From a bacterium (GTDB lineage Bacteria > Patescibacteriota > Minisyncoccia > UBA6257 > GWB1-50-10), in NCBI GenBank assembly GCA_021814165.1, contig JAKAIX010000002.1, positions 69,371 through 133,370 on the forward strand: a stretch of 64,000 nt of DNA. Direction: 5' to 3'. A program made the position numbers and the translations under genes. The notes beneath the pieces were generated by a model that worked only from the letters and a program-made list of their open reading frames with translations, was not told the origin of the DNA and did not search any database. Positions 2 through 15,139 of the stretch are shown here, in pieces. Positions within the stretch are counted from its first letter, which is position 1. Every line of letters starts with the position of its first letter.

Positions 2-706
2 GGAGTAACTCCGGAAACACTTTCCGCGACCAGGGCGGCGCTTCGCGTGAAAGGCGGGAGGGTCGGGGTCGTAACGACGGGAGGCCCGCTTCTTCGTCTT
101 GCCGAAACAAAAGGATTGTCTCGCGTGACATTTCGTGCGGGAGACTTGACACCGCGGGAATCCCATGCTTATATGTATTACGCTATCATCGAGATGGTGC
201 GGAAGATGCTTCCTCTGAAGACGCCGACTATCTCGAGATCATTCTCTCCTTCCAAACTGCGCACGCAAGGGAAACGTTACGCGAAAAGGATTCGCGGCGT
301 ACCGACGCTCATTTACGCTCCATCCGCCGACGCGCATTTGGGATACATCTGGAAGAGGAACCTGAACGAGACGGGAAAAATCCCTGCTTTTACGCATCAA
401 TATCCAGAACTCTATCACGAAGAAATAGCGGGTTTTGAGAAAAAAAAGACGCACTGGAACGCACTTTGGATTATGAGTCCGCGGCTCCGGCGGGAAGAAA
501 AGAAAAAAATAGAGCGCGCGCAATCGATTCTCGCAACATACGGAGTAACAAGCTTCTCAATTCCACTCCACGGAAACAATAAACTTGAAGAGCTTTGGAA
601 TTCGGAAGTACTTTCTCATTGGGTTTCTTATTACTTGGCAAAAGCGGGGGGGCTTGATCCGAAAGCAATCCCCATTATTACCAAGCTGAAAAGTTTGAAA
701 AAGTAA
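2..706 (+). CDS. 3' part of a gene that runs off the window start; the C-terminus weakly resembles the C-terminal domain of bacterial bifunctional phosphoglucose/phosphomannose isomerase (SIS family)
   Basis: The frame is open from base 2 with no upstream stop. The C-terminal stretch SHWVSYYLAKAGGLDPKAIPIITKLK resembles the bact-PGI_C pattern. Recognition is weak. Confidence 0.3.
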   Translation, partial: GVTPETLSATRAALRVKGGRVGVVTTGGPLLRLAETKGLSRVTFRAGDLTPRESHAYMYYAIIEMVRKMLPLKTPTISRSFSPSKLRTQGKRYAKRIRGVPTLIYAPSADAHLGYIWKRNLNETGKIPAFTHQYPELYHEEIAGFEKKKTHWNALWIMSPRLRREEKKKIERAQSILATYGVTSFSIPLHGNNKLEELWNSEVLSHWVSYYLAKAGGLDPKAIPIITKLKSLKK

Positions 707-1047: not shown

Positions 1048-2772
1048 ATGCCACGAATGGCACAACACAGGACAAGGAGGTCCTCGGATCACGAAACACT
1101 CCAAAAAGAAAAAGGTCACGTCAATCTCATTCCCTTGGGCGGGCTTGAGGAAATCGGACGTAATATGTCCTACGTCGAATACAAAGATGAGATCGTCATC
1201 GTCGACGCGGGCATCCAGTTTCCCGAAGAAACGACGCCGGGCGTTGATTTCATCATTCCGAACGTGAGTTCGCTTGAATCGAAGAAATCACATATCAAGG
1301 CGCTTGTGCTCACGCACGCACACTTCGATCATATTGGTGCGCTCCCCTATCTCACCGAAAGATTGGGGAATCCGCCGATTTACACGATGGAGCTCACAAA
1401 AGCCCTGATCGAAAAGCGGCAGAACGAGTTTACGAATGCGCCGAAGCTCGTTGTCGAAACCGTAAAATACGGCGACAAGAAGAGGGTCGGCCAATATCTC
1501 GAACTTGAGTTCTTCGGCGTGGACCACACGGTGCCCGAAACGAGCGGCATCGTTATAAAAACACCCATCGGGAACATCGTGCACTTCGCCGATTTCCGTC
1601 TCGAATACAACGAGAAGGGTGAGCCGCAGAACACGGCGGAGTTCAAGCGCATCGGAGAAATGGGGGTGCATACCTTCATGATCGACAGCACGAATGCCGA
1701 GGAGGAGGGGCACTCGCTCTCCGAAAAGAATATCGAGAAAAATCTCGAGAAACTTTTTGAACAGGCACAGGGACGCATCATTCTTACCACGTTTTCCTCA
1801 ATGCTCACCCGTATCGCGGAGATCATCAAAATTGCGGAACGGCTCGGGCGAAAGGTTTCTATCAACGGCCGCTCAATGAAGGAAGGGGTTCAAATCGCCC
1901 AGTCCCTCGGCTATATCAAATCGAAGAAAGATACCTTAATTCCGGTCGAGGACATACACAAACACAAAGACAATAAAGTGCTGATCCTTACGACCGGCTC
2001 GCAGGGACAGGAAAACGCGGGACTTATGAGAATTATGACGGGCGAGCATCGCTACATCCGCATCAAGCCCGGTGACATGGTTCTCTTTTCCTCTTCGGCA
2101 ATTCCCGGAAATGAACGGAGCATCCAGACATTAAAAGACAACCTAAGCAGACAGGGAGCGCTCGTTATTACTTCTTCGATCATCGATATCCACGTCAGCG
2201 GTCATGCGCCGAAAGGAGATTTGGAGGCGGTGATAAAACTCATCAAGCCGAAATTTCTTATGCCGGTGCACGGTTACTACTTTATGCGTTTCGCAAACGG
2301 CCAGAACGGCGTCGCGGCGGGACTCAGGCCCGATCAAGTGCGCCTTATGGATAACGGACAAATTGCGCACCTTACCGAACATGAGTTCGTAATTACCAAG
2401 GAAACGGTGCCCGCGAACTATGTGCTTGTTGACGGGCTGGGAGTCGGCGATGTAGGCGAGGTGGTACTTCGCGACCGACGCATGCTCTCGCAGGAAGGCA
2501 TGTTCGTGATTATCACGACTATCGATAAGAAGACGGGAAGAGTGCTCAAAAATCCCGACATCATCTCGCGCGGATTCATTTATCTCAAGGAAAATCAGAC
2601 GCTCCTGGATGAGATACGGAAACGGGTGCGCGGCATCATCGGCCGCATCCCCCGCTATCAACCGCTCGATGCGGATTACGTGAAATCGCTTATCCGCGAT
2701 CAGGTGGGGCAGTTTCTCTATAACAAGACGAAGAGACGTCCCATGGTACTTCCGGTACTCATCGAAATCTAA
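1048..2772 (+). CDS. rnj: Ribonuclease J (metallo-beta-lactamase / beta-CASP family)
   Basis: 574 aa. Contains the HAHFDHIGALP metal-binding motif, an RNase J-like N-terminus (LIPLGGLEEIGRNMSYVEY...IVDAG), and a beta-CASP plus C-terminal domain. Confidence 0.85.
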   Translation: MPRMAQHRTRRSSDHETLQKEKGHVNLIPLGGLEEIGRNMSYVEYKDEIVIVDAGIQFPEETTPGVDFIIPNVSSLESKKSHIKALVLTHAHFDHIGALPYLTERLGNPPIYTMELTKALIEKRQNEFTNAPKLVVETVKYGDKKRVGQYLELEFFGVDHTVPETSGIVIKTPIGNIVHFADFRLEYNEKGEPQNTAEFKRIGEMGVHTFMIDSTNAEEEGHSLSEKNIEKNLEKLFEQAQGRIILTTFSSMLTRIAEIIKIAERLGRKVSINGRSMKEGVQIAQSLGYIKSKKDTLIPVEDIHKHKDNKVLILTTGSQGQENAGLMRIMTGEHRYIRIKPGDMVLFSSSAIPGNERSIQTLKDNLSRQGALVITSSIIDIHVSGHAPKGDLEAVIKLIKPKFLMPVHGYYFMRFANGQNGVAAGLRPDQVRLMDNGQIAHLTEHEFVITKETVPANYVLVDGLGVGDVGEVVLRDRRMLSQEGMFVIITTIDKKTGRVLKNPDIISRGFIYLKENQTLLDEIRKRVRGIIGRIPRYQPLDADYVKSLIRDQVGQFLYNKTKRRPMVLPVLIEI

Positions 2773-2785
2773 TTTTGGGAAGATT

Positions 2786-2837
2786 GGAAGCCGGGCCTCC
2801 GTGACCTGCCTGCGCAGGCAGGGGAAGCCCGGCTTCC
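2786..2837. repeat. GC-rich nested palindromic repeat: outer IR GGAAGCCGGGCCTCC/GGAAGCCCGGCTTCC around a perfect 18-bp palindrome CCTGCCTGCGCAGGCAGG; followed by TTTTT at 2842-2846 (probable rnj terminator)
   Basis: The palindrome is read directly from the sequence. The same core recurs at 23092-23147, 58777-58800 and 34681-34701 (variant), and related arms occur at 9579-9612 and 21265-21283. Confidence 0.7.
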
Positions 2838-2955
2838 ATGTTTTTATCGTTGCTCGCTGGAGGCCGTACCTCCGTTAGGAGGTCCGGCCTCCTTATATTG
2901 ACGTCATTAATGATCCGTCTTGCACAACCTACGATCACAAATTACCATACTACAT

Positions 2956-3939
2956 ATGAAACCAATCCTCGTATCGGGAATCCAGCCGACGGGAAAATTG
3001 CATATCGGAAATTACCTCGGCGCGCTCAAGAACTTCGTGGCTCTCCAAAACACGGGGAAGTTCCAGTGTTTTTTCTTTGTCGCAGATCTCCACTCCATGA
3101 CCGAGGAATTCAATCCGAAAGAGAAGTCGAAACAGGTCGAGAATCTCATTCTCGACTTTCTCGCGGCGGGGATCGACACAAAAAAATCGACGCTCTTCGT
3201 ACAGTCGGCAATCCCCGCTCACAGCGAACTCGCATGGATTTTGAACACCATCACTTCCTTCGGAGAACTGCGCCGCATGACGCAGTTCAAAGAAAAGACG
3301 GGTGAGGAGTATGAAACGACAAACGTCGGTCTTTTCGACTATCCCGTCCTTATGGCAGCGGATATTCTGCTTTACAGCGCGAAGTTCGTTCCTGTAGGCG
3401 ATGATCAACTCCAACACCTCGAACTCACCCGTACGCTCGCTCGGAAGTTTAACTCGAAATTCGGGAACACATTCTTTGAGCCGAAACCGCTCCTGACAGA
3501 AGTTCCCCGTCTTATGAGCTTGGACGACCCGACAAAGAAGATGTCGAAATCACGCCCCGAGGGATGTCTTTTTCTCGACGATGAACCGGAGGTAATCAGA
3601 AAGAAAATTATGCGCGCCGTTACAGACTCGGATACGGAGGTGCGCGCCGATCGCGATCGAAAACCGGCGGTTACGAATCTTATCAGAATCTATTCCGCAA
3701 TGAGCGGCAAGGACGCACTTCAGATTCAGGAGCGCTTTAGGGGAAAGGGGTATGGGGAGTTCAAAAAAGAACTTGCGGAGACCGTCATACAAGGACTTGC
3801 GCCGTTCCAAAAAAGAAAGAAAGAACTCAAGAAAAAACGGGCAGTAATCATGGGGCAGGTCGCCGCGGGAAACAAGAAGGCAAATGTGATCGCTTGGAAA
3901 AAACTTGCGGAAGCAAAGAAAAAAACCGGCCTCGTTTGA
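2956..3939 (+). CDS. trpS: Tryptophanyl-tRNA synthetase
   Basis: The N-terminus reads MKPILVSGIQPTGKLHIGNYLGA (a class I HIGH-type motif) and KMSKS is present. I picked the start at 2956, the internal Met that matches the TrpRS N-terminus. Confidence 0.85.
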   Translation: MKPILVSGIQPTGKLHIGNYLGALKNFVALQNTGKFQCFFFVADLHSMTEEFNPKEKSKQVENLILDFLAAGIDTKKSTLFVQSAIPAHSELAWILNTITSFGELRRMTQFKEKTGEEYETTNVGLFDYPVLMAADILLYSAKFVPVGDDQLQHLELTRTLARKFNSKFGNTFFEPKPLLTEVPRLMSLDDPTKKMSKSRPEGCLFLDDEPEVIRKKIMRAVTDSDTEVRADRDRKPAVTNLIRIYSAMSGKDALQIQERFRGKGYGEFKKELAETVIQGLAPFQKRKKELKKKRAVIMGQVAAGNKKANVIAWKKLAEAKKKTGLV

Positions 3940-3993
3940 CAGGAAAACACAAAAAGAACTAGAGTAATAACGGGTCGGAAAAAAATAATATTT

Positions 3994-4158
3994 ATGAACA
4001 CCGAAAAATTCCAAGAGGAAGAAACACCACAGGAAGAGAGTGCAAAAACGGAGCAGCTCTATCCAACTGCGGACGGGATGTTTCTAACCGAGCAAGAAAA
4101 AAGGAGCCAGGACGAGGAGAAAAAAGCAAACCCGAATTGGTATCACGAACAAGAATAA
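3994..4158 (+). CDS. Small (54 aa) highly acidic hypothetical protein
   Basis: ATG at 3994 and TAA at 4156, so too short to appear in the ORF track. It is followed immediately by a strong hairpin terminator, but there is no other support. Confidence 0.25.
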   Translation: MNTEKFQEEETPQEESAKTEQLYPTADGMFLTEQEKRSQDEEKKANPNWYHEQE

Positions 4159-4192
4159 AGAAAACCGCGGCCTAGGCCGCGGTTTTCTTTCA
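4159..4192. terminator. Bidirectional rho-independent terminator (AAAACCGCGGCCTAGGCCGCGGTTTT)
   Basis: A perfect GC-rich palindrome flanked by an A-run and a T-run, lying between the convergent small ORF and the ileS 3' end. Confidence 0.7.
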
Positions 4193-4225
4193 ATCTTCAC
4201 CACCTCTCTCTTCCCTACTAACCTG

Positions 4226-7200
4226 CTATAATCTCCTTAATCCTATCCAGATTTTGAGCTCATCGAGCTCGGTATCAAGCTCCGCATCGAACTTCTCCGA
4301 TCGTTTCCACTCGAAGGACGCTGCTCCCGTTTCTTTCCTGATAAGCGCCTCGTTATTTTCAACGATGTGTTTGAATTCTTTGTTTCCTTCCGTCATAAGC
4401 GCGATTCTGTCCTTCGGCTCCAGTTTCGCGTCCTGGCGCAGGCCCTGAATCATCCTTACCAATTCTCTCAACATCCCCTCCTCCCGAAGTTCGTGCGTAA
4501 TTTCCGTATCAAGTATAAACTCCTCCTTCAGATTCTTATCAAACGTGATTTGCTTCACGTTAACCTCATCCTTCAATATATCAAGCAGTTCTTTCTCATC
4601 CTTTCCGCCAAAGGCGGATCCTCCTTTGGAGGAAATTCTCAATTCCCGTAATGGTTGCCTCACCTTAATTCCCAATTCCGCCCGCTTTGCGAGAACGGCA
4701 CTCGCAAGATCGCGAATTTGTTGCATTGCTCCAAGGAGTTTTTTGTCGATAAGCTTTTTGTCCGCCTTCGTCCATTCGGCCGCATGCACCGACGTGTTTT
4801 TCCCCTCAAGCGACAAATAAAGCGCCTCCGCAAAAAACGGCGTGAAGGGGGCCATGAGTTTCGTAATTTCTTCCAGCACGAACTTCAAGGTGGTTGATGC
4901 GGCGAGATAGTCTTTCTGTGTGTCCGGCTTTTGTAAACGCCTTCGCGAGCGGCGGATATACCATCGGGAGACGTCCCCGACGAACTCCTCGATATTTCTC
5001 GCCGCGATTCCCACTTCGTATATATCGAGGTTCTTCGTCGCGACATCGATAGTCTCATGAAGCCGCGCGAGAATCCACCTGTCGAGAATGTTCGAGGATT
5101 TTATATTTGAAGCTTTGGGTTTCGAATTTTTATCCCCGTATGTTTCATAAAATATGAACGAGTTGTAGATGAGCGAGAAAAACTGCCTCGATACTTTCCC
5201 GAGATCGGCTTCATCGAAGCGCTTCGGTTCGCTGGGAGGATTCACGACATAAAAGTACCAACGGACGGCGTCCGCGCCGTACTTCGCAATCATATCCCAC
5301 GGATTCACGGTGTTCCCTTTTGATTTGGACATCTTGGATCCCTCCTTGTCGAGAATGAGTCCTAGAACAATCACGTTCCGGTAGGGTGACTCGAGCCCTA
5401 AGAGTGTCGCAAGTGCAAGGAGTGTATAGAACCACCCTCTTGTCTGATCCATCGCCTCGCAAATATAGTCGGCGGGAAAGTCGATTGATTTCAGGTGCGT
5501 CCTTAGCTTCTGGTCGGAGAGTTTCAATACATGATCCGTGAGCTTCAAGCTGTTGCCGAAGGGGAAGTGCGCCTGGGCGTACGGCATCGCTCCCGAGTCG
5601 AGCCATACGTCAACCACCTCGGGAGTGCGACGCATCGCCGCCTTGCATTTGGGGCATCTGGTCGGGAGCTCGTCGATGTAGGGCTTATGAAGATCAAACG
5701 CGCCCGTCTCATCTCTCGGTACCAAGCGGAATGTTCCGCGTTCTACCTGCCCGTTTTTTACGTAATCTTCGCCGCGCCTATCCTTCTCCGCGACTGCCTC
5801 GACGCTTGTCCAGCCCTGCATGATGTGTTGCAGCATCCAAACGCATGATTCGTGCGTCACGACGAGAATCGTTTTTCCCGCATACTTCTTTTCGAGATCC
5901 CGTACAAAATCAAAGAGCCGCGCGCGAAGGTCCGCAAAGCTCTCGCCGTTCGGCGCTTGTTTTAAAAATTTCTCATGGCGGGAGCTGTAGTAGCCCTTGT
6001 ACGCCTCATACGGTTTTCCGTTAAAATCACCGAAGTCGAATTCGCGAATGCGCGGATCGAAAAGTACGGTTCCGAGAGAGAGTTGTTTCTTGAATATTTC
6101 CGCACTTTCTTTTGTGCGGGTGAGATCGGACGCAAACACGAGATCCACTTTGTCCTTTTTAATTTCCTTCGCCGCCGCCTCGATCTGTTTTCTCCCCTTA
6201 AGTGTGAGATGATACGGCTTCCTCTCGGGCCAACTGATAACCATGTGCTGAATGTTGCTCTCCGCTTCTCCGTGGCGCACGAAGATGTATTTATTGGCGC
6301 TTTTCGGCGCGAGGAGCTCAAGTTCCCTTACGCTTCCCGCGCAGTACCCCTTGCCGCATTTTTCGCACTGCCACACGGGGAGCGGCGTTCCCCAGTAACG
6401 ATCCCGCGACACCGCCCAATCCTTCACCTCGCGAAGCCATTCGCCGAACCTGCCGTCTCGAATCGTTTCCGGGACCCAGTTGATTTTTTTATTTGACGCG
6501 AGAAGTTTCGACCGGAGCTTGCTCATAGCGATAAACCATGAGTCGCGCGCGTAATACAGGAGCGGCGTACCGCACCTCCAGCAGAACGGATAGTCGTGGG
6601 TGTAAAGTTCGGTTTTAAAAAGGAGTTTTCTTTTCTTGAGATATTCAAGAATTTTATTCGTCGTTTCCGTTTCCGTCTTCTCGTCCTTCGATTTCACTGT
6701 CATTCCTTCGAATCCCTTCACGTCTCCCGTGAATCTCCCCCGCTCGTCCACCGTATGATGCTGGGGAAGCCCGATTTTTGTTCCGAGATTGTAATCGTCC
6801 TCGCCGTACATTACCGCGGTATGCACGACGCCCGTACCGTCAGTCGTCGTCACGAAGTCAGCGAGATATATCTTGTAGGAGGTCTCTGATTTAAGCGCCG
6901 GCACGTCGAAGAGCGGCTCATACTCAAGCCCGACCAGGTCGTTCCCGCTTAAAGTGGCAAGTGTCTCGTATTTCGTATCAAATATTTTATCCGCTAAATC
7001 CGCGGCAACAATAAAGTTTTCCCCGGTATTCTTAATACTCACTACTTGATACTTGATGCTCTTCCCTACCGCGAGCGCCACGTTTCCCGGTAACGTCCAC
7101 GGCGTCGTCGTCCAAGAGAGAATATAAGTATCACCGCGAGTTTTTAGTTTCGGGTTTTTAGTTTTTAGTTTAAATTTTATATATACGGAGGTGTCTTGCG

Positions 7201-7798
7201 TCTCCTTATACCCTTGTGCAATTTCATGCGACGAAAGCGCCGTACCGCATCGCGTGCACCACGGCACCACTTTGTGTCCCTTGTAGAGCAACTTCTTCTC
7301 CCATACCTGTTTCAAAATAAACCAGATCGACTCCATGTAGTCGTTCTCGTAAGTCACGTAAGGATGCTTCATGTCGAGCCAGAATCCGATTCGGTTCGTG
7401 AGTTTCTCCCACTCGTCCTGATACTGCCAGACCGATTTTCTGCACTCCTGGTTAAACTTCGAAACGCCATACGACTCGATTTCCTTCTTTGATTTGATGC
7501 CGAGCTTTTTCTCGACCTCGAGCTCCACCGGAAGCCCGTGCGTATCCCATCCCGCGCGGCGCGGCACGTAGAAACCTCTCATCGACTTGTAGCGGAGTAT
7601 GATGTCCTTGAAAGAGCGTGCAAGCACGTGATGGAGGCCCGGTCGGCCGTTCGCCGTCGGAGGACCTTCATAAAACACGAATTTTTTGCTCTTCTTGCGG
7701 GAGGTGAGCGTTTTTTCAAATATTGCGTTTGTGTGCCAGAACTCAAGTACTTTTTCCTCGATCTCCGGAAGCGAAAATTTCGAAAGCCTTCGTAGCAT
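4226..7798 (-). CDS. ileS: Isoleucyl-tRNA synthetase with an inserted histidine-phosphatase (PGAM-superfamily) domain
   Basis: 1190 aa. It has class I aaRS blocks, a CP1 editing motif (TDGTGVVHTAVMYGEDD), DVWLDSGAMPY and KMSKS. Residues about 503-700 carry YIFVRHGEAESN and ILVVTHESCVW motifs between two CxxC pairs. Confidence 0.9.
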   Translation of the reverse strand: MLRRLSKFSLPEIEEKVLEFWHTNAIFEKTLTSRKKSKKFVFYEGPPTANGRPGLHHVLARSFKDIILRYKSMRGFYVPRRAGWDTHGLPVELEVEKKLGIKSKKEIESYGVSKFNQECRKSVWQYQDEWEKLTNRIGFWLDMKHPYVTYENDYMESIWFILKQVWEKKLLYKGHKVVPWCTRCGTALSSHEIAQGYKETQDTSVYIKFKLKTKNPKLKTRGDTYILSWTTTPWTLPGNVALAVGKSIKYQVVSIKNTGENFIVAADLADKIFDTKYETLATLSGNDLVGLEYEPLFDVPALKSETSYKIYLADFVTTTDGTGVVHTAVMYGEDDYNLGTKIGLPQHHTVDERGRFTGDVKGFEGMTVKSKDEKTETETTNKILEYLKKRKLLFKTELYTHDYPFCWRCGTPLLYYARDSWFIAMSKLRSKLLASNKKINWVPETIRDGRFGEWLREVKDWAVSRDRYWGTPLPVWQCEKCGKGYCAGSVRELELLAPKSANKYIFVRHGEAESNIQHMVISWPERKPYHLTLKGRKQIEAAAKEIKKDKVDLVFASDLTRTKESAEIFKKQLSLGTVLFDPRIREFDFGDFNGKPYEAYKGYYSSRHEKFLKQAPNGESFADLRARLFDFVRDLEKKYAGKTILVVTHESCVWMLQHIMQGWTSVEAVAEKDRRGEDYVKNGQVERGTFRLVPRDETGAFDLHKPYIDELPTRCPKCKAAMRRTPEVVDVWLDSGAMPYAQAHFPFGNSLKLTDHVLKLSDQKLRTHLKSIDFPADYICEAMDQTRGWFYTLLALATLLGLESPYRNVIVLGLILDKEGSKMSKSKGNTVNPWDMIAKYGADAVRWYFYVVNPPSEPKRFDEADLGKVSRQFFSLIYNSFIFYETYGDKNSKPKASNIKSSNILDRWILARLHETIDVATKNLDIYEVGIAARNIEEFVGDVSRWYIRRSRRRLQKPDTQKDYLAASTTLKFVLEEITKLMAPFTPFFAEALYLSLEGKNTSVHAAEWTKADKKLIDKKLLGAMQQIRDLASAVLAKRAELGIKVRQPLRELRISSKGGSAFGGKDEKELLDILKDEVNVKQITFDKNLKEEFILDTEITHELREEGMLRELVRMIQGLRQDAKLEPKDRIALMTEGNKEFKHIVENNEALIRKETGAASFEWKRSEKFDAELDTELDELKIWIGLRRL

Positions 7799-7891
7799 GC
7801 TAACTATTGTAATAGGGACCTAGCTTTTTCGCAAAAATTCGGAATATTGGAGGCCGGGCTCCTATTGGGAACTAAACCTTCTGAAAACGTG

Positions 7892-7931
7892 CTGCCTCAA
7901 AATCTATGCATATGCACAAATTTTGAGGCAG
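7892..7931 (-). terminator. Hairpin CTGCCTCAAAAT...ATTTTGAGGCAG just downstream of the argS stop
   Basis: A perfect 12-bp inverted repeat with a 16-nt loop. A T-rich run follows it on the minus strand. Confidence 0.5.
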
Positions 7932-7936
7932 GTCGC

Positions 7937-9529
7937 TTACATCTTTTTTGGGGCGCTGATACCGATCGTCGAAAAGAGATTCTCAAATATAATGCATGTT
8001 GCGGCAACGAGTGCGACGCGCGCATCGCTGATTCCTTTTTCTTCTCCCGCCACGCGCTCCGCTTCGTAGAAGTTATGGAATGTCTTTGCGAGCTCCGATG
8101 CGTATCGCGTGAGGCGGTGGACGCCGTAGTCGCGGGCGGCATCCTCGATAATCTCAGGAAACCGCGCAAGTTCGCGGATGAGGCCTATATCATGCACGGT
8201 CGAGAGTTTCGTAACGTCGAAGTTCTTCGACGCGGTTGTTATCTTCATCTTCGTGAGAATATTCTTCGCGCGCACATACGCATACTGAACGTAATACACG
8301 GGGTTTTTCTGCGATCTCTCTTTCGCGAGCGCGAGATCGAAATCCATATGCGTTTCCGGAGCGATCATGAGAAAAAAGAATCGCGCCACATCGGCTCCCA
8401 CCTCGTCCACAAGCTCCTCGAACGTCACGAATTTTCCTTTCCGTTTGGACATTTTTACCAACTCTCCTTGTTCCATAAGGCGAATCGCCTGTGTGACAAG
8501 TACGGTCGATTCTTTGAACCCGAGGATTTTCGCGACGGCTTGGATGCGCGCCACATAGCCGTAATGATCCGGCCCCAGAATGTTGATCTTAGTATCAAAT
8601 CCGCGTTGCTTCGTTTGGAGATAATGCCCGGCATCCGCAAGAAAATACGTCGGATTCCCCTCCTTTGTGATAATTACCCGGTCCTTGTCGTCGCCGAACG
8701 CGGTCGTCTTGAGCCACGTTGCTCCGTCCTCTTCGAATACAAAATTTTTCTTCTTAAAGAGCGTGAGCACTTTCTTGACGAGGCCGGTCGTATGGATCTG
8801 TTTCTCGGAGGTAAAACGATCGAATTTGATCCTCGCTTTTTTCTGTACGGCAGTTTTGATAAACCTGAGAAAGTCTTTCGCGGCGCGCTCTCCCAGGGAA
8901 AGCGGCTTTCCCTTCATGCTCTCGATAAGCGCGCGGTGACCGTCCGCCCATTCTTTTACATAATCACCCTTGTAGTACTCCTCCGAGTCGGGAATGATTC
9001 CTCCCGCGGCAAGTATGGATTTCCCCAGGTTCAATACCTGATTTCCCGTGTCGTTCACGTAATACTCCCGCTCCACCTTTGCGCCCGCGCGCGCGAGCAC
9101 GTTTCCCAGGGCGTCGCCCAAAAATCCTCCCCTGCCGTTCGCGAGCGTAAGCGGCCCCGTCGGATTCGCCGAGATGAACTCAAGCTGGACTTTCTTCTTG
9201 AGGAGCTTGAGTGTTCCGTACTTCTTCTTCTCGTTCAAAATCCGCTTCAGCTCCTCTTCGAGTACGTTGCTGCTTACCGAAAAATTAATGAATCCGGGGC
9301 CCGCAACTTCCACTTTCTCGAAAAAACCCTTAGGCGCTTTTACCCCGATGCTGTCCGCGATCTTCGTTGCGATCTCCCGCGGATTCTTTTTCTCCGCCTT
9401 TGCGAGCTGGAATGCGACCATCGTTGCGTAGTGCGCCTCCTGATGTTCCTCGGCAACCCGCACGTCGAATACCGTCCCCTTGGGAACCGCTTTCGCGACG
9501 ATTGCCGTAATCCTCGATCGAATACCCAT
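7937..9529 (-). CDS. argS: Arginyl-tRNA synthetase
   Basis: 530 aa with an ArgRS-type N-terminal domain, a class I catalytic core and a DALR-like C-terminus. The 562-aa ORF on the + strand over the same span is its antisense shadow. Confidence 0.85.
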   Translation of the reverse strand: MGIRSRITAIVAKAVPKGTVFDVRVAEEHQEAHYATMVAFQLAKAEKKNPREIATKIADSIGVKAPKGFFEKVEVAGPGFINFSVSSNVLEEELKRILNEKKKYGTLKLLKKKVQLEFISANPTGPLTLANGRGGFLGDALGNVLARAGAKVEREYYVNDTGNQVLNLGKSILAAGGIIPDSEEYYKGDYVKEWADGHRALIESMKGKPLSLGERAAKDFLRFIKTAVQKKARIKFDRFTSEKQIHTTGLVKKVLTLFKKKNFVFEEDGATWLKTTAFGDDKDRVIITKEGNPTYFLADAGHYLQTKQRGFDTKINILGPDHYGYVARIQAVAKILGFKESTVLVTQAIRLMEQGELVKMSKRKGKFVTFEELVDEVGADVARFFFLMIAPETHMDFDLALAKERSQKNPVYYVQYAYVRAKNILTKMKITTASKNFDVTKLSTVHDIGLIRELARFPEIIEDAARDYGVHRLTRYASELAKTFHNFYEAERVAGEEKGISDARVALVAATCIIFENLFSTIGISAPKKM

Positions 9530-9578
9530 TATTAATTAATGTAACGCGTTACCGACAAAACCTCCAGTCGCTTAAGGA

Positions 9579-9659: not shown

Positions 9660-11429
9660 TTACACGACTTCTGCTTGATAACATGATTCGCAGTATACAA
9701 TCTCATGTCGCTCGGGCGCGTAGCTTGTCTCGAACTCGTTGGGACATTTCTCCGTCCCGTGAGTATGTTTCCCGGTATTTTGATAAACGCCGTTTTCCGA
9801 TTTCGATCCCACACATTGGCACTTTCTATGCCATAACTTAAGTGGATTCTTCCGAAAAAACCGCGCCTGATGTCTGCAGTTGGGACACAGACGCGGAAGG
9901 GGCAGATTCATCCTGCGGTGAAACGTGAGTTCCTCCGGAATGATTTTGAACGCCGTAGTACACTGATGCGCGCACTTCCCTTCGTGCGCGCATCCGACTA
10001 CCTCCTCCAAAATAGAATCCGGAACATCTTTAATGGTCTGCTGCAAATTTTTGCTCTCTTGCGTCACCTTATAGTTCCGCTCCTCCGGCTCCTTCCATAA
10101 AAATCCCTTTCCTGCCGCTTCCTGCTTTGAAAGAGGGAAGTAGTCCTGAGCGACCGTTTCGTTATATGCAAAGGGGCAGAGATCGGAGGAAAAAAATTCA
10201 CCGTATCCGAATCGCCGTCCTCCGGTATCCTGAAACGGTTTTTCTTTCATCTGCAGAACGACTTTTTCTCTTAATTCTTCATATTCCTCTTTCGAATATT
10301 GTTTGTTTAAAATGCAGTATTGCGCTTTCCGCAAACTTACGCACCCGAACAAATTATTCGAGTTCTCGCAGGTATCGCAGTATTCCGCATCAAAATCGTT
10401 CCATACGCAGTATCCGAACTTCACATTACTCGTCGTGATCGCGCTCACAATCTCATACGAAAACTGGCCATCATCAACCGCAACATACCCGTCATAACAG
10501 TTCCTGCTTTTGTTTCCGTGATTCATGAACTTCGAGTCCTCAAGCAATTCGGAATCGTATGCATGAAAGGCGTTTTTCGAGTTGAACACGTAGTCACCCG
10601 AAACGTTGGTGTTTTGAATCCCGTGGATGTGTTTTGATGGGAATCTTTTCCAGAACTCGAACGCGAGAACTCGCGTCGAGTCGATACCGTCCTGGGAGTC
10701 CAGTCTCATGGACTCCATTTCTTTCAAATAGTCCTCTTTCGAGTACTGCTTATTGAAAATCTGATAGCGCGCGTTCCGCAGGTTGGCACATCCGATACAG
10801 TCCTGGCAGTTCGCACAGTTCTTACAAAAGAAGAGGTCTTGGGAATCATTGCAATCCTCCGAAAAGCAGATCTTGTAGCACTTCCGGCACGTGACCGAAT
10901 CGTAAGAAAGTTCGCACTCGTGGCAATTCAGGAGATCCGCACTGTTGCGGCAATCGAAGGTTGAATACGAGTACATCAGATCCTCATTGTGGTCGCTTAC
11001 AAAGATAAGGTAACAATTTTTGTTGAACGCAGCGCCGTTCGCATAATCGCTCTTCACATTCTGAAATGCGAACGCATAAAGACGCGGAACTTTAAATTGC
11101 AGTTTCCTGAACTGTTCGAGAAAGGGCCTCGAGAAATCGACATCAACACCGAAAGAAAGCGGATCCCACTTATCCGAGTGGTAACACTCCCGGCAGTACA
11201 CTGTGTAGGGCTTGTCGGGAGAGTATATGGAAATTATGGTGTTGCCGCAGAGATCGCATTTTCTCCGGTACAAACTGCGTTCACAGCGCCAGATGAGGCG
11301 CCGCTGCAATCTGCATTCCGAACACCACGTGGGAGGAGGAACCTGTAGTTTCTCATAAAATGAAAAATCATCCGGTTCGATCGTGAACGATTGCTTGCAA
11401 TTCTGACAGATTTTGGATTCCGTATTCAT
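9660..11429 (-). CDS. Cysteine-rich multi-zinc-ribbon protein, paralog 1 of 3 (family not recognised)
   Basis: The true start is probably the internal Met (MNTESKICQNCKQSFTIEPDDF...) at 11429, not the track start at 11495. It has an N-terminal double CxxC ribbon (PPPTWCxxCRLQRR), two internal C-x2-C-x2-C...FGC...YCIxNKQYSKEEYE modules, and a C-terminal Cys/His cluster ending YCESCYQAEVV. Confidence 0.7.
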   Translation of the reverse strand: MNTESKICQNCKQSFTIEPDDFSFYEKLQVPPPTWCSECRLQRRLIWRCERSLYRRKCDLCGNTIISIYSPDKPYTVYCRECYHSDKWDPLSFGVDVDFSRPFLEQFRKLQFKVPRLYAFAFQNVKSDYANGAAFNKNCYLIFVSDHNEDLMYSYSTFDCRNSADLLNCHECELSYDSVTCRKCYKICFSEDCNDSQDLFFCKNCANCQDCIGCANLRNARYQIFNKQYSKEDYLKEMESMRLDSQDGIDSTRVLAFEFWKRFPSKHIHGIQNTNVSGDYVFNSKNAFHAYDSELLEDSKFMNHGNKSRNCYDGYVAVDDGQFSYEIVSAITTSNVKFGYCVWNDFDAEYCDTCENSNNLFGCVSLRKAQYCILNKQYSKEEYEELREKVVLQMKEKPFQDTGGRRFGYGEFFSSDLCPFAYNETVAQDYFPLSKQEAAGKGFLWKEPEERNYKVTQESKNLQQTIKDVPDSILEEVVGCAHEGKCAHQCTTAFKIIPEELTFHRRMNLPLPRLCPNCRHQARFFRKNPLKLWHRKCQCVGSKSENGVYQNTGKHTHGTEKCPNEFETSYAPERHEIVYCESCYQAEVV

Positions 11430-11498
11430 AATTCCCGTTACACGACTTCTGCTTGACCCTCCTTCGCTTTTCGAGCTACGAAGGGCAAGTAGCACCGC
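11430..11498 (-). other. 69-bp spacer between the tandem paralogs containing a fossil copy of a paralog 3' end (...QAEVV-stop + CGGGAATT)
   Basis: The 28-nt block TCAAGCAGAAGTCGTGTAACGGGAATTA at 9651-9678 (the C-terminal codons plus stop of paralog 1) is repeated at 11430-11456, directly upstream of the paralog 1 ATG. Confidence 0.6.
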
Positions 11499-13286
11499 TC
11501 ATACAACCTCCGCCTGATAACATCCCTCACAGTAGATGACCTCGGGTCGCTCCGGAGCGTACGGAGTTTCAAATTCGCTGGGACAGTGGGTGTTTCCATG
11601 AACGTGCTTACCGGTATTTTTGAAAATTTCCTTCTCGGAAGCGGCGCCCGCGCACATGCATTTCCGGTGCCAGAGCTTCAACGGATTGCGCTTCGAAAAC
11701 CGCTCATGGTGGCGGCAATTGGGGCAGAGGCGCGGAAGCGGTACTCCCAGCTGCTTGTACAAACTAAGCTCCTTGGGAATTATCTTGAAGGCGGTCGTGC
11801 ACTGCTCCACGCACTTCCCTTCGTGCGCGCATCCTACAACTTCGTTCAGGATAGAATCATTTACATCCTCGATACGATCCGGAAGATCATTGGCGCGTAC
11901 CGTGACGGTGTAATTTTTATTTTCCATTTCCCGCCATACGAGTCCGCGCGCTTCCATTTCCTCTTTAGTGAGCGGGTAATAATCTTGTGCAATTGTTTCG
12001 TTATAGGCGAAGGGTGAAAACTCCGGCGGGAAAAACTCGCCGTAGGCATACATCCTCCCCTTCTTATCCGTGTACGGCATCGCATTCATGTGGGCAACGA
12101 GCTTCGGCAACAGTAATTCATACTCCTCTTTTGTATACTGCCTGTTCAGGATGCAATACTGCTTGCTGTGCAATCCCACACACCCGAAGCAGTCCTGGCA
12201 TCCGGTGCAGCCAACCGAGTAGTAAATTCGCGCACTCCCCTTTATGAAGAAGCTGAAGTAATAGTCCTGGTTTTCATTCGATTCGAATCCTATCGCTATC
12301 GTCTCATACACTCTCTCGGCGCTCGGCATGCCGTAGTTGTCATACCCGTCCTTCACGCCGATCACCGCATACACCGTGTATTTCGAGTCCTCGGATCCGG
12401 TCCCCGACAGATCGAAACAGTTCTTGCAGTTCCTGGCGTTTCTCACGTTGTCACCAGTGGAGTTTTCCGTGTTGACCATAAACGCGTAGCGATGGAGTGA
12501 TTTTCGGTATAATTCGTCGAATTTCCGCTTGGCCTCCTGCAACGCCCCGTGGTTCCCGAGATTCAGCTCTTTCACCCGCTTTTCATATTCTTCTTTGGTT
12601 AGCTGCTCGTTAAAGAAACAATTACTCTTGCCTCGGAGATTCGCGCACCCGAAACAGTTCGTACAGTTCTTGCACTCATAAAGGAACCAGGAGTCGGAAC
12701 AGTTATCCGAGTATTTACTGAAAAGGAGTCGGTTAGAGTTCTCGCATTGGATATCCTCGTAGCAAAGTTCCATCTTCGAACAGTTAAAAAGATCGAGAGA
12801 ATCTCTCGTAGATGAGGTGGTCTCGGAATAGAGAAGGTCTTCGTTCTGCCTGCCGCCGAAAATGAGATAGGAATTTTTATTCGAGGCGGTGAAGTTGCAG
12901 TAATCGGAGTTCACCGATTGTGTATTAAAAAGATTGATCACGGGTACCGCTTTAAAGAGGTTTTTGAATTGGGATAAAAAACTTTCGCTGAAATCCAACT
13001 TCATGCCGTAAGACATCGGATCCCACGCATCGCCCCACCAGCATTCCTGGCAAAATACCGTCATCGGGCTCGTGTCGGATAGAAAGGAGATAATCGATTT
13101 CCCGCACTTGTCGCACTTTCTCCTGTAGAGCGATCTCTGGTTCCGGAACGCCAGGCGCCGTTGGAGCCGGCATGCCGGGCACCACGTGGGGGGAGGCACT
13201 TTCATCTTCTCGTAGAAGGCGAAGTCATCCGGCTCGATCGTGAACGATTGCTTGCAGTTTTGGCATTGTCGTGTTTCCTTCTCCAT
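11499..13286 (-). CDS. Cysteine-rich multi-zinc-ribbon protein, paralog 2 of 3
   Basis: 595 aa. It starts MEKETRQCQNCKQSFTIEPDDFAFYEKMKVPPPTWCPACRLQRR, has the same module architecture as paralog 1, and ends YCEGCYQAEVV. Confidence 0.7.
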   Translation of the reverse strand: MEKETRQCQNCKQSFTIEPDDFAFYEKMKVPPPTWCPACRLQRRLAFRNQRSLYRRKCDKCGKSIISFLSDTSPMTVFCQECWWGDAWDPMSYGMKLDFSESFLSQFKNLFKAVPVINLFNTQSVNSDYCNFTASNKNSYLIFGGRQNEDLLYSETTSSTRDSLDLFNCSKMELCYEDIQCENSNRLLFSKYSDNCSDSWFLYECKNCTNCFGCANLRGKSNCFFNEQLTKEEYEKRVKELNLGNHGALQEAKRKFDELYRKSLHRYAFMVNTENSTGDNVRNARNCKNCFDLSGTGSEDSKYTVYAVIGVKDGYDNYGMPSAERVYETIAIGFESNENQDYYFSFFIKGSARIYYSVGCTGCQDCFGCVGLHSKQYCILNRQYTKEEYELLLPKLVAHMNAMPYTDKKGRMYAYGEFFPPEFSPFAYNETIAQDYYPLTKEEMEARGLVWREMENKNYTVTVRANDLPDRIEDVNDSILNEVVGCAHEGKCVEQCTTAFKIIPKELSLYKQLGVPLPRLCPNCRHHERFSKRNPLKLWHRKCMCAGAASEKEIFKNTGKHVHGNTHCPSEFETPYAPERPEVIYCEGCYQAEVV

Positions 13287-14794: not shown

Positions 14795-14801
14795 TAGTTT
14801 G

Positions 14802-15139
14802 TGGAGATGGCCGGAGTTGAACCGGCATCCAGTAGCTTCCTTACAAACCTTCTACAAGCTTAGTCCGTTAAGACGATGTTTGATTCTTTGTTTAACGAGC
14901 GTATCCGAATCGCTATACACTCACGAGTCCCATGTATAACACCAGTGATCCTCTATGGAACCTGAAGGACTGATGCCCCTCCTTCGCATAAAGCTACGGG
15001 AGGGGATCCCACACTACGCGTAAGCGAGCGCGGGAACTGCGTTTCTATTGGCAGTTAAAATTGAGTGAAGAGTTTCACGAGATTTTCAGCTCGACCTGCG
15101 GTTTGCAAGGGAATGATACTGTCGAAGCCTAGCATCCCC
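14802..15139 (-). ncRNA. ssrA: tmRNA (SsrA), about 338 nt
   Basis: Minus-strand 5' GGGGATGCTAGGCTTCGAC and 3' ...GCCGGTTCAACTCCGGCCATCTCCA form a 7-bp acceptor stem with one G-U pair, and the T-arm is GCCGG-TTCAACT-CCGGC. A candidate tag ORF GCC AAT AGA AAC GCA GTT CCC GCG CTC GCT TAC GCG TAG encodes ANRNAVPALAYA. smpB is adjacent. Confidence 0.7.

What the first reader, a model, noticed from the sequence alone, without database searches (positions are those of the whole stretch)
5699..6292. Histidine-phosphatase (PGAM-superfamily) domain inserted into the catalytic core of isoleucyl-tRNA synthetase
The 1190-aa IleRS is roughly 150-250 aa longer than typical bacterial IleRS. The extra length sits between the conserved ...RDRYWGTPLPVW block and the ...DVWLDSGAMPY block. 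Many IleRS carry only a short Zn knuckle there; here the CxxC pairs are CEKCGK and CPKCK. Residues about 503-700 (plus-strand 5699-6292) read YIFVRHGEAESN ... ILVVTHESCVWMLQ. These are the RHG catalytic-His motif and the second His motif of the histidine phosphatase / phosphoglycerate mutase superfamily. The ORF is continuous with no frameshift. A phosphatase domain grafted between the two zinc-knuckle halves of a class I aaRS is something I have not seen described. Possible functions are a nucleotide or alarmone phosphatase, a regulatory module, or a moonlighting activity coupled to aminoacylation.
Basis: partly seen in the sequence, partly recalled or inferred. Interest (0 to 1): 0.7.

Follow-up and report, generated by a model that had tools for sequence, protein, structure and literature searches.

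The report
Phosphatase domain nested inside isoleucyl-tRNA synthetase
The enzyme that loads isoleucine onto its tRNA carries, in this bacterium and across much of the Patescibacteria (CPR) radiation, a complete and apparently active histidine phosphatase spliced into one of its surface loops; I found no published description of this fusion, and its purpose is unknown.

Summary
Window 4226-7798 (minus strand) is one uninterrupted 1190-aa type-2 IleRS (TIGR00392 913 bits). A ~205-residue His_Phos_1 domain (E = 1e-33) sits between the two CxxC halves of the second zinc knuckle.

It is not an artefact. The identical protein was assembled on 12 contigs from several samples. All 240 listed top homologues from two searches carry both domains.

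Among 31 genome-derived fused or ileS-adjacent copies, R508, H509, R561 and H649 are invariant and position 586 is Glu or Asp. dN in the insert equals that of the synthetase core (omega <= 0.07). AlphaFold gives a confident phosphatase fold closest to PhoE, CobC, PspA and GpgP.

New here:
- Related phosphatases occupy at least three different IleRS loops.
- Some proteins carry two copies, and one ValRS-like protein carries four.
- In other CPR genomes the phosphatase is a separate gene directly upstream of ileS, overlapping it by 8 nt in two loci.
- 90 of the 150 closest domain relatives are embedded in class Ia synthetases.

The synthetase motifs are intact, so this is most likely a bifunctional enzyme with a phosphatase tied to IleRS. 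The substrate is unknown. Literature searches found no description. Verdict: a real, widespread, undescribed variant of a known enzyme.

The parts
4226..7798 (-). Complete ileS gene: 1190-aa type-2 (archaeal/eukaryote-like) IleRS with a nested phosphatase. The stop codon is 4226-4228.
   Evidence: Single ORF. TIGR00392 912.9 bits against cutoff 621.4, with MupA/MupB-like similarity. Closest solved structures are 8C8W (P. megaterium IleRS2) and 1ILE. Identical to database protein P0089.
5696..6313 (-). The whole insert relative to unfused IleRS, residues 496-701: histidine phosphatase domain plus its C-terminal return segment.
   Evidence: Alignment with unfused CPR IleRS shows only a short connector here. 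tblastn shows the N-part, insert and C-part contiguous. pLDDT is 90-96 in the full-length model.
5813..6286 (-). Pfam His_Phos_1 (PF00300) match, residues 505-662.
   Evidence: E = 2.2e-32 in the whole protein and 1.3e-33 alone. PDB sequence hits are PhoE 1EBB/1H2E at E = 1e-12, then PspA and CobC. Foldseek TM-scores on the target are 0.70-0.76 to GpgP, CobC, PspA and PhoE.
6269..6277 (-). RHG motif: R508, the catalytic nucleophile H509, and G510.
   Evidence: R508 and H509 are invariant in 45 fused proteins and in all 31 site-1 or ileS-adjacent copies.
6116..6118 (-). R561, the second phosphate-binding Arg (SDLTRT).
   Evidence: Invariant.
6041..6043 (-). E586, the predicted proton donor (REFDFG).
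   Evidence: At least 90% conserved in 45 sequences. Glu in 26 and Asp in 5 of 31 copies.
5852..5854 (-). H649, the distal active-site His (VVTHES).
   Evidence: Invariant.
6356..6367 (-). First half of the second Zn knuckle, C478-E-K-C481.
   Evidence: C478 and C481 are invariant in 45 fused proteins. The same CxxC is present in unfused IleRS.
5645..5656 (-). Second half of the second Zn knuckle, C715-P-K-C718.
   Evidence: C715 and C718 are invariant in 45 fused proteins. All four Cys are lost in L018 and L030, which keep the insert.
5591..5611 (-). DVWLDSG motif, residues 730-736, which opens the second half of the Rossmann/HUP fold 12 residues after the knuckle.
   Evidence: D730, W732, D734, S735 and G736 are invariant. 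The domain ranges are from PMC10485003.
7628..7639 (-). Class I signature motif in the swapped form G54-L-H-H57 (GXHH instead of HXGH).
   Evidence: GXHH is described as a mupirocin hyper-resistance variant of IleRS2 in PMC10485003.
5321..5335 (-). KMSKS loop, residues 822-826.
   Evidence: Conserved in fused orthologues.
6785..7120 (-). CP1 editing-domain signature motifs: WTTTPWTLPGN (229-239) and DGTGVVHTAVMYGEDD (320-335).
   Evidence: Conserved in fused and unfused forms, so the editing site appears intact.
4646..5083 (-). Anticodon-binding domain (Pfam Anticodon_1, residues 906-1051).
   Evidence: E = 2.8e-31.
4247..4516 (-). Type-2 C-terminal domain (Pfam DUF5915, residues 1095-1184).
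   Evidence: E = 1.6e-20.

Best explanation
What it is. The gene encodes a bifunctional protein: a complete, editing-competent type-2 IleRS of a Patescibacteria (CPR) bacterium. A self-contained, catalytically intact branch-1 histidine phosphatase is nested at the tip of the second zinc knuckle of connective peptide CP2. The two CxxC pairs bring the domain's N- and C-termini together.

Shown here:
- The synthetase motifs are intact.
- The phosphatase has the full catalytic set: R508/H509 as the nucleophile pair, R561 and H649 as phosphate ligands, and E586 as proton donor.
- It folds as an independent PhoE/CobC/PspA-like domain.
- It is under purifying selection as strong as that on the synthetase.
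- This is the usual IleRS architecture in many Patescibacteria lineages.

Inferred:
- The domain hydrolyses a phosphomonoester, or a terminal phosphate, through a phospho-His509 intermediate.
- Its activity is functionally tied to IleRS. The same phosphatase subfamily has been attached to IleRS repeatedly: at three or more different loops, in one to four copies, or as a gene directly upstream of ileS that overlaps it in two loci.
- Because the attachment point varies, proximity or stoichiometric coupling probably matters more than a precise allosteric geometry.

My preferred guess at the substrate, held at low confidence: a small nucleotide-like phosphate compound linked to the aminoacylation cycle. 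It could be a by-product or an inhibitor, such as AMP, 2'/3'-phosphonucleotides or PPi. Clearing it locally would keep activation and proofreading running forward in these energy-poor fermenters.
For: Identity and integrity.

Not an artefact:
- The identical protein is on 12 contigs, including GCA_027423885.1 and Logan runs.
- L001 is an independent 76%-identical copy.
- About 30 genome loci show a contiguous N-part, insert and C-part, most as single 1150-1224-aa frames.
- All 120 plus 120 top homologues carry PF00133 and PF00300.

Active phosphatase:
- Invariant R508, H509, R561, E619, R627 and H649, with E586 at least 90% conserved.
- dN of 0.07-0.13 in the insert, similar to the core, with saturated dS and omega <= 0.07.
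- AF2 pLDDT 89.4 and pTM 0.86, and 90-96 within the full-length model.
- Foldseek and phmmer hits to PhoE, PspA, CobC and GpgP.

Functional coupling:
- A standalone homologue lies directly upstream of ileS in L003, L012, L023, L029 and L045. It is the only gene pair conserved in all five, on the same strand, overlapping by 8 nt in two loci and 2 nt apart in a third.
- These standalone copies nest within the site-1 insert clade in a rough NJ tree.
- There are independent insertions at site 2 (L031, P0313, P0322) and site 3 (P0245, P0322), and a tandem double (P0248).
- 90 of the 150 best domain representatives are embedded in class Ia synthetases.

Small-molecule preference:
- The nearest structures are small-molecule phosphatases with a cap of similar size.
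- The domain is not systematically basic.
Against: - No substrate has been tested, and none can be deduced from sequence.
- The scores for CobC, PspA, dPGM and SixA models are all far below their cutoffs, so no known specificity can be transferred.
- All aaRSs make AMP and PPi, so a by-product-clearing role does not by itself explain the restriction to IleRS, with one ValRS-like case.
- PPi hydrolysis is not an established activity of branch-1 histidine phosphatases (my own knowledge).
- Variable insertion sites are also what a neutral hitch-hiker would show.
- I could not obtain model coordinates, so the distance between the two active sites is unknown.
- Only 64 kb of the genome was seen, so a second, unfused ileS elsewhere is not excluded.
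Confidence: 0.5

Rival explanations
1. Hitch-hiking housekeeping phosphatase. The domain does an unrelated cellular job as a broad-specificity phosphatase and merely resides in permissive surface loops of IleRS. It got there by recombination from the neighbouring gene. It is kept because both activities are needed, with no mechanistic link to aminoacylation.
For: - The domain folds autonomously.
- It occurs free-standing in related genomes.
- The insertion site varies.
- No synthetase motif changes consistently with its presence. For example, both HxGH and GxHH forms carry it.
- The nearest solved relative, PhoE, is known to me as a broad-specificity phosphatase.
Against: - Internal in-frame insertion is much harder to achieve than an end-to-end fusion. 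Yet it happened at three or more sites, although the free gene sits directly upstream, where an N-terminal fusion would be trivial.
- The only hosts found are IleRS and one ValRS-like protein.
- 60% of the closest relatives of the domain are synthetase-embedded.
- Selection on the insert is as strong as on the essential core.
Confidence: 0.25
2. tRNA-end healing. The phosphatase removes a 2'/3'-phosphate, or a toxin-added pyrophosphate, from the CCA end of tRNA-Ile. The damaged tRNA can then be charged by the synthetase it is already bound to.
For: - The domain is tethered to an enzyme that holds the tRNA 3' end. Site 1 lies next to the start of the second Rossmann half.
- NCBIfam shows similarity to the phosphatase half of the bifunctional RNase H/acid phosphatase, NF005567.
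- Precedents from my own knowledge: the HD-domain phosphatase of the E. coli CCA-adding enzyme, and toxSAS/CapRel toxins that pyrophosphorylate the tRNA CCA end.
Against: - Fused domains are not systematically basic: pI 5.2-9.7, median 6.8.
- The nearest structures are capped small-molecule enzymes.
- Three different attachment sites and free-standing forms argue against a fixed geometry towards the CCA end.
- There is no reason such damage would be specific to tRNA-Ile.
Confidence: 0.12
3. Protein phosphatase for self-repair. The domain reverses inhibitory phosphorylation of IleRS, for example by HipA-like toxin kinases, in the manner of the protein-directed family members PGAM5, Sts and SixA.
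For: - Branch-1 members include protein phosphatases (my own knowledge). There is a weak SixA hit of 21.9 bits.
- Tethering would give a high local concentration whatever the insertion site.
Against: - The SixA score is far below its cutoff of 74.5.
- The domain keeps a cap subdomain typical of small-molecule enzymes.
- No kinase partner was seen in the five standalone-locus neighbourhoods.
- No IleRS-targeting kinase is known to me.
Confidence: 0.05
4. Non-catalytic module. The fold is used only as a structural, dimerisation or tRNA-binding element.
For: - Insertion domains of class Ia synthetases often serve tRNA handling (my own knowledge).
- Tandem copies could mimic the dimers common in this family.
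Against: - All catalytic residues, including the proton donor, are conserved in every copy examined. This holds even in 2- and 4-copy proteins.
- That pattern is not expected for a purely structural role.
Confidence: 0.05
5. Assembly chimera or pseudogene.
For: L001 has two in-frame stop codons.
Against: - The identical 1190-aa ORF is on 12 contigs from different samples.
- Hundreds of homologous clusters show the same architecture.
- GC content is uniform across the junctions, and no repeats flank them.
- The L001 stops are single C-to-T changes from Gln codons on one short contig.
Confidence: 0.01

Closest known systems
Type-2 isoleucyl-tRNA synthetase (IleRS2), e.g. Priestia megaterium 8C8W and Thermus thermophilus 1ILE
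   Same: - Overall domain order and the split tRNA-synt_1 match.
- The CP1 editing motifs and KMSKS.
- Both Zn knuckles.
- Anticodon_1 and the DUF5915 C-terminus.
- The GXHH form of the signature motif is a described IleRS2 variant (PMC10485003).
   Different: It carries a ~205-residue enzymatic domain inside the CP2 Zn knuckle, where solved and unfused IleRS2 have a short connector. Neither broad IleRS study that I searched mentions this.
PhoE (YhfR) phosphatase of Geobacillus stearothermophilus, 1EBB/1H2E
   Same: It is the best PDB sequence match (E = 1e-12) across residues 9-157 of the insert. It shares the catalytic residues, has a cap of similar length with hydrophobic residues after the proton-donor Glu, and gives a TM-score of 0.76.
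   Different: PhoE is a free-standing ~200-aa protein. Structure-based sequence identity is about 21-22%. No specificity can be transferred.
CobC alpha-ribazole phosphatase, PspA phosphoserine phosphatase and mycobacterial GpgP (Rv2419c)
   Same: The same fold and catalytic core, and they are among the top structural neighbours.
   Different: Model scores are far below the family cutoffs: TIGR03162 88-92 against 162.9, and PspA 59-63 against 350. It is therefore not a member of these equivalogs.
Bifunctional RNase H / acid phosphatase (NF005567, the Rv2228c type)
   Same: A CobC-like histidine phosphatase joined to an enzyme that acts on nucleic acid. Its phosphatase half hits the insert at 76-80 bits.
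   Different: That protein is an end-to-end fusion (profile positions 176-331 of 378). Here the domain is nested inside the partner's fold. The score is below the cutoff of 326.
IleRS with an N-acetyltransferase domain (NCBIfam NF040702, ileS_w_GNAT)
   Same: A curated precedent for an IleRS carrying an extra enzymatic domain. It is listed among the hits.
   Different: The added domain is a GNAT, not a phosphatase. The window protein matches only its IleRS part (319 bits against cutoff 1999). I did not examine where the GNAT sits.
HD-domain phosphatase of the E. coli CCA-adding enzyme (my own knowledge, not tested here)
   Same: A phosphatase or phosphodiesterase activity physically joined to an enzyme that works on the tRNA 3' end.
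   Different: An unrelated fold (HD), a terminal fusion and a different host enzyme.

Membership tests
Histidine phosphatase superfamily, branch 1 (Pfam PF00300) | Significant match to the family profile, above the curated cutoff. | tested here: met
   116.7 bits against cutoff 21.7, E = 1.3e-33.
Histidine phosphatase superfamily, branch 1 (Pfam PF00300) | RHG motif with the nucleophilic His and its Arg. | tested here: met
   R508-H509-G510. R and H are invariant in 45 and in 31 sequences.
Histidine phosphatase superfamily, branch 1 (Pfam PF00300) | A second Arg and a distal His that complete the phosphate pocket, plus an acidic proton donor. | tested here: met
   R561 and H649 are invariant. 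E586 is Glu in 26 and Asp in 5 of 31 copies.
Histidine phosphatase superfamily, branch 1 (Pfam PF00300) | The alpha/beta fold of the family. | tested here: met
   AF2 pLDDT 89.4. Foldseek probability 1.00 with TM-scores of 0.70-0.76 to PhoE, PspA, CobC and GpgP.
Histidine phosphatase superfamily, branch 1 (Pfam PF00300) | Phosphatase or mutase activity through a phospho-His intermediate. | not testable with these tools
   This needs enzymology comparing wild type with H509A.
Isoleucyl-tRNA synthetase (TIGR00392), type 2 | Equivalog model above its cutoff. | tested here: met
   912.9 bits against 621.4, matched in two stretches around the insert.
Isoleucyl-tRNA synthetase (TIGR00392), type 2 | The class I signature motifs HIGH and KMSKS. 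| tested here: met
   KMSKS at 822-826. HIGH is present as the swapped GLHH, a described functional IleRS2 variant.
Isoleucyl-tRNA synthetase (TIGR00392), type 2 | CP1 editing-domain motifs. | tested here: met
   WTTTPWTLPGN and GTGVVH..GEDD are conserved.
Isoleucyl-tRNA synthetase (TIGR00392), type 2 | The type-2 C-terminus, which lacks the IleRS1 zinc-binding domain. | tested here: met
   Anticodon_1 plus DUF5915. The best PDB matches are IleRS2 structures.
Isoleucyl-tRNA synthetase (TIGR00392), type 2 | Aminoacylation of tRNA-Ile. | not testable with these tools
   This needs biochemistry. No second ileS lies in the 64-kb window; the rest of the genome was not seen.
2,3-bisphosphoglycerate-dependent phosphoglycerate mutase (dPGM) | Equivalog models above their cutoffs. 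| tested here: not met
   NF038349 scores 76-79 against 225, TIGR01258 26-31 against 81.7, and the other gpmA models are far below cutoff. The positions after the proton donor read F-D-F, which by my recollection of E. coli dPGM numbering differs from its substrate-binding Arg and Tyr.
Alpha-ribazole phosphatase CobC (TIGR03162) | Equivalog model above its cutoff. | tested here: not met
   87.6-91.8 bits against 162.9.
Phosphoserine phosphatase PspA (NF045917) | Equivalog model above its cutoff. | tested here: not met
   58.8-63 bits against 350.
Phosphohistidine phosphatase SixA (TIGR00249) | Equivalog model above its cutoff, with a minimal cap-less fold. | tested here: not met
   21.9 bits against 74.5. 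The insert has a cap region of PhoE-like length.
Mobile insertion (intein or transposable element) | Terminal repeats, a compositional break or splicing motifs at the junctions. | tested here: not met
   There are no repeats flanking 5696 and 6313. GC content is uniform. The only Pfam hits are phosphatase and synthetase domains.

The most novel reading that the evidence does not exclude
The phosphatase is a third catalytic site of the synthetase, integrated into the aminoacylation and proofreading cycle, and is conserved across a bacterial superphylum. One version is a tethered pyrophosphatase or nucleotidase that keeps activation irreversible in PPi-rich, energy-poor CPR cells. Another is an activity that heals phosphorylated tRNA-Ile 3' ends. 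Either would be a previously unrecognised kind of accessory chemistry in an aminoacyl-tRNA synthetase.
Probability: 0.3. Interest if true: 0.85.

Novelty: new variant of a known kind. Interest (0 to 1): 0.66.

Why it matters
Aminoacyl-tRNA synthetases are among the best-studied enzymes. Their added domains usually handle tRNA, editing or, in eukaryotes, signalling.

A conserved and apparently active phosphomonoesterase nested in the connective-peptide region of IleRS would be a new accessory activity for this enzyme class. It has been acquired repeatedly, at different loops, across the Patescibacteria. The fusion and gene-neighbour pattern is a strong comparative-genomic signal that some phosphorylated compound matters specifically for isoleucine charging in these reduced, host-dependent bacteria.

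There are practical consequences too:
- The insert makes NCBI label many of these essential enzymes only 'class I tRNA ligase family protein'.
- The PGAM-like domain could be miscounted as a phosphoglycerate mutase or CobC in metabolic reconstructions of CPR genomes.
- The GXHH signature motif suggests these IleRS enzymes are also intrinsically mupirocin-resistant.

Tried and rejected
1. Apparent rarity. The first homology search with the 250-aa insert returned only one fused hit. This was an artefact of word-based candidate selection: full-length queries and the exhaustive search show that the fusion is common.
2. Chimeric assembly or pseudogene. Rejected.
3. Recent mobile-element insertion. 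There are no flanking repeats and no GC break, and the insert is ancient, with 29-50% identity across classes.
4. Membership in dPGM, CobC, PspA or SixA. All scores are below cutoff.
5. A nucleic-acid-binding surface inferred from charge. There is no consistent basic pI.
6. Degenerate pseudo-dimer copies in multi-copy proteins. All copies keep the catalytic residues.
7. A link between the insert and the GXHH motif. Both HxGH and G/AxHH forms carry the insert.
8. A cultivated host for experiments. A search seeded with a Saccharibacteria-labelled protein returned only uncultured lineages, so whether cultivated strains such as TM7x have the insert is undetermined.
9. AlphaFold DB search. The library was unavailable.
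10. Full-length AF2 model. It gave confidence values but no coordinates, so the distance between active sites could not be measured. The low pLDDT at residues 39-87 probably reflects the shallow 45-sequence alignment, since that sequence is highly conserved.
11. One Pfam call failed on a size limit and one paper search failed on syntax.
Full report
**1. The observation**

The window holds one uninterrupted ORF at 4226..7798 on the minus strand, 1190 aa.

Pfam splits the class I synthetase match around a His_Phos_1 domain at residues 505-662. The E-value is 2e-32 in context and 1.3e-33 (116.7 bits, cutoff 21.7) for the excised segment. NCBIfam identifies the host as IleRS: TIGR00392 scores 912.9 bits against a cutoff of 621.4, with MupA/MupB-like (type 2) similarity. 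GC content is uniform across the junctions, and no repeats flank them.

**2. Not an artefact, and not rare**

My first search with the insert alone found a single fused fragment among 88 hits. That fragment comes from a 3.1-kb contig (L001) whose single frame encodes the same IleRS with the same insert, 76% identical to the window protein.

The apparent rarity was a search artefact:
- The full-length query recovers the window protein itself (P0089, 100% identity). All 120 listed homologues (53-86% identity, 1110-1373 aa) carry both PF00133 and PF00300.
- A second full-length query from another lineage gave the same result for another 120 clusters.
- The identical 1190-aa protein was assembled on 12 contigs, among them an NCBI MAG (GCA_027423885.1, 340-kb contig) and independent Logan assemblies.

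A scan of species-representative genomes and of metagenomes gave 42 loci. tblastn with the N-part, insert and C-part of the window protein shows the three pieces contiguous in about 30 of them. Most are single open frames of 1150-1224 aa.

The record titles name Paceibacterota, Minisyncoccia, Kerfeldbacteria, Wildermuthbacteria, Yanofskybacteria, Azambacteria, Spechtbacterales and Saccharibacteria. The protein sources add Jorgensen-, Wolfe- and Taylorbacteria. All of these are Patescibacteria/CPR.

**3. Anatomy**

An alignment of 31 fused and 5 unfused IleRS proteins shows the same insertion point everywhere. It lies after the strand-helix `GS(v/i)xEL` that follows the first CxxC, and before `DLH(K/R)PYID`, which precedes the second CxxC. 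Unfused proteins have only a short connector there.

From the residue ranges published for P. megaterium IleRS2 (HUP core 40-168 and 513-632; PMC10485003) and the alignment to 8C8W, I infer that the site lies in connective peptide CP2. It is 12 residues upstream of the invariant `DVWLDSG` that opens the second Rossmann half.

The synthetase looks fully functional. KMSKS, both CP1 editing motifs and the first Zn site are conserved in fused and unfused forms. The signature motif reads GLHH. This is the GXHH swap shown to be functional in IleRS2 and to give mupirocin hyper-resistance (PMC10485003). It does not track the insert, because fused proteins with HxGH also exist.

**4. The phosphatase is intact and under selection**

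- In 45 fused proteins, R508, H509, R561, E619, R627, H649 and the four knuckle cysteines are invariant. E586 is at least 90% conserved.
- In 31 genome-derived site-1 or ileS-adjacent copies, R508, H509, R561 and H649 are invariant, and position 586 is Glu (26) or Asp (5).
- Against five close relatives, dN in the insert (0.07-0.13) matches or is lower than in the synthetase parts (0.06-0.20). Where dS could be estimated (four of the five) it is saturated, giving omega <= 0.07.
- AlphaFold2 on residues 464-740 gives pLDDT 89.4 and pTM 0.86, with the knuckle strands packed at the base of a standard alpha/beta phosphatase fold. In the full-length model (pLDDT 81, pTM 0.70) the insert is the most confident region, at 90-96.
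- The nearest solved proteins are small-molecule phosphatases: PhoE (1EBB/1H2E, E = 1e-12 by sequence), PspA, CobC and mycobacterial GpgP. TM-scores on the target are 0.70-0.76.
- No equivalog model (CobC, PspA, dPGM, SixA) approaches its cutoff. The specificity is therefore open.

**5. Evidence that the phosphatase is tied to IleRS**

(a) The closest free-standing homologue (P0002, 43% identical) is encoded immediately upstream of an unfused IleRS. The same holds in L012, L023, L029 (two tandem copies) and L045. Across these five loci the phosphatase-ileS pair is the only conserved neighbourhood. The genes are on the same strand. They overlap by 8 nt in L023 and L029, lie 2 nt apart in L045, and are 132-151 nt apart in L003 and L012.

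(b) In a rough NJ tree these adjacent copies nest within the clade of site-1 inserts.

(c) A Gracilibacteria IleRS (L031, read in genetic code 25) has an uninterrupted knuckle. It carries a 41%-identical phosphatase in the loop before the anticodon-binding domain, which I call site 2.

(d) Representatives from the exhaustive search show further arrangements:

| Arrangement | Example |
|---|---|
| Site 1 + site 3 (the loop after `HFPF`) | P0245 |
| Site 3 + site 2 | P0322 |
| Site 1 + site 2 | P0313 |
| Tandem double at site 1 | P0248 |
| Free-standing double | P0345 |

All copies keep the catalytic residues.

(e) P0210, with four copies, scores best as ValRS.

(f) Of the 150 best 50%-identity representatives of this domain in 1.8 billion proteins, 90 contain class Ia synthetase sequence.

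**6. Mechanism**

Shown: a complete IleRS2 and a complete, conserved histidine phosphatase share one polypeptide.

Inferred:
- The phosphatase is active through a phospho-His509 intermediate.
- Physical linkage to IleRS is selected. Internal in-frame insertion arose at several loops, even though a simple N-terminal fusion from the upstream gene would be far easier.
- Because the attachment points differ, proximity or stoichiometry matters more than a fixed geometry.
- The PhoE-like capped active site and the lack of a consistently basic surface (pI 5.2-9.7) favour a small substrate over an extended tRNA-binding mode.

My working guess is a nucleotide-like phosphate linked to the aminoacylation cycle, such as AMP, 2'/3'-phosphonucleotides or PPi. 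I hold it with low confidence, and it does not explain the preference for IleRS.

Rivals:
- A hitch-hiking housekeeping phosphatase (0.25).
- Healing of the tRNA-Ile 3' end (0.12).
- Reversal of inhibitory phosphorylation of IleRS (0.05).
- A non-catalytic module (0.05).
- An artefact (0.01).

**7. Comparison with what is known, and novelty**

Both parts belong to well-known families, and the membership tests for both are met. What is unusual is the nesting and its recurrence.

Nine full-text searches that ran and term searches within three papers found no description. Two of those papers are broad IleRS studies, and one of them annotated about 96,000 IleRS sequences with IleRS-specific domain models. 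The third is an archaeal gene-fusion survey.

Public sources call these proteins 'isoleucine--tRNA ligase', 'isoleucyl-tRNA synthetase', 'class I tRNA ligase family protein' or, once, 'hypothetical protein'. The Pfam hits are already precomputed in public resources, so the architecture is visible to anyone who looks. The subscription literature was not searchable. NCBIfam's ileS_w_GNAT model shows that IleRS with an extra enzymatic domain is a recognised theme.

I therefore rate this a new variant of a known kind, not categorically new.

**8. Verdict**

The feature turns out to be a conserved, multiply evolved trait of a major bacterial radiation, with no function assigned.

Interest is 0.66. 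It would surprise a synthetase specialist and it defines clear experiments, but the biology behind it is still unknown.

Noticed in passing
window 7628-7639 (minus strand), IleRS residues 54-57: The class I HIGH signature reads GLHH, the HXGH-to-GXHH swap. PMC10485003 reports this variant as giving IleRS2 mupirocin hyper-resistance. Close relatives have G(L/I)HH, and two Saccharibacteria-labelled proteins have ALHH. Other fused IleRS keep HxGH.
   Followed up: partly
window 1048-9529: Three aminoacyl-tRNA synthetase genes sit side by side: TrpRS 2920-3939 (+), IleRS 4226-7798 (-) and ArgRS 7937-9529 (-). They lie next to RNase J (1048-2772, +) and a bacterial PGI-type SIS-domain protein (47-706, +).
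   Followed up: partly
window 14799-15636: A tmRNA gene (14799-15139, minus strand, tag peptide ANRNAVPALAYA) lies directly beside its partner gene smpB (15187-15636, minus strand).
   Followed up: no
window 7847-9535 (+): A 562-aa ORF lies entirely antisense to the ArgRS gene. It is most likely a mechanical ORF rather than a gene.
   Followed up: no
window 9660-13286 (-): Two consecutive ORFs of about 600 aa (9660-11495 and 11499-13286) have no Pfam match at E <= 1e-5.
   Followed up: no
L001 (= L044, VFSW01106776.1), positions 1249-1251 and 2014-2016: The orthologous fused ileS on this 3.1-kb contig has two in-frame stops. Each is one C-to-T change from a Gln codon seen in relatives: TAA against CAA in L006, and TAG against CAA in the window. 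This suggests sequence error, DNA damage or a recent pseudogene.
   Followed up: partly
P0210 (1161 aa): A protein that scores best as ValRS (NF004349 411 bits, against 199 for ileS) carries four histidine phosphatase copies, each with an RHG motif. The last copy runs to the end of the protein and lacks the distal-His region, and no C-terminal synthetase half is present, so the sequence is probably a fragment. The phenomenon is therefore not strictly limited to IleRS.
   Followed up: partly
L031 4113-7904; P0245, P0248, P0313, P0322, P0345: Alternative arrangements exist: a phosphatase before the anticodon-binding domain (site 2), one in the loop after HFPF (site 3), tandem doubles, and two-site combinations that reach 1419-1468 aa. 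There is also a free-standing double-domain protein.
   Followed up: yes
L029 7916-9111: Two tandem free-standing phosphatase genes precede ileS. The second overlaps the ileS start by 8 nt.
   Followed up: partly
L028 (Azambacteria, LCEQ01000009.1), about 9998-10510: The insert has an internal deletion of about 50 residues that removes the cap and the GES..R segment. It still keeps RHG, the second Arg, the Glu and the distal His.
   Followed up: no
L018 and L030 (labelled Saccharibacteria): All four cysteines of the second Zn knuckle are lost but the phosphatase insert is retained. Zinc pinning is therefore not required to host the domain.
   Followed up: no
window 5483-5551 (minus strand), IleRS residues about 750-772: The window IleRS has about 17 extra residues in the loop after HFPF compared with unfused relatives. 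This is the same loop that hosts a phosphatase (site 3) in P0245 and P0322.
   Followed up: no
L027 and L034: MAGs labelled 'uncultured Gammaproteobacteria' carry fused IleRS genes that cluster with the Kerfeldbacteria versions. These are probably mis-binned or mislabelled contigs.
   Followed up: no
database names: NCBI annotation often names these essential enzymes only 'class I tRNA ligase family protein', and once 'hypothetical protein'. The likely reason is that the insert disturbs the IleRS model match.
   Followed up: no
L003 8041-9345: In that locus a DUF4147/MOFRL protein (a family I recall as glycerate kinases) lies two genes upstream of the free-standing phosphatase. It is not conserved in the other four standalone loci.
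   Followed up: partly
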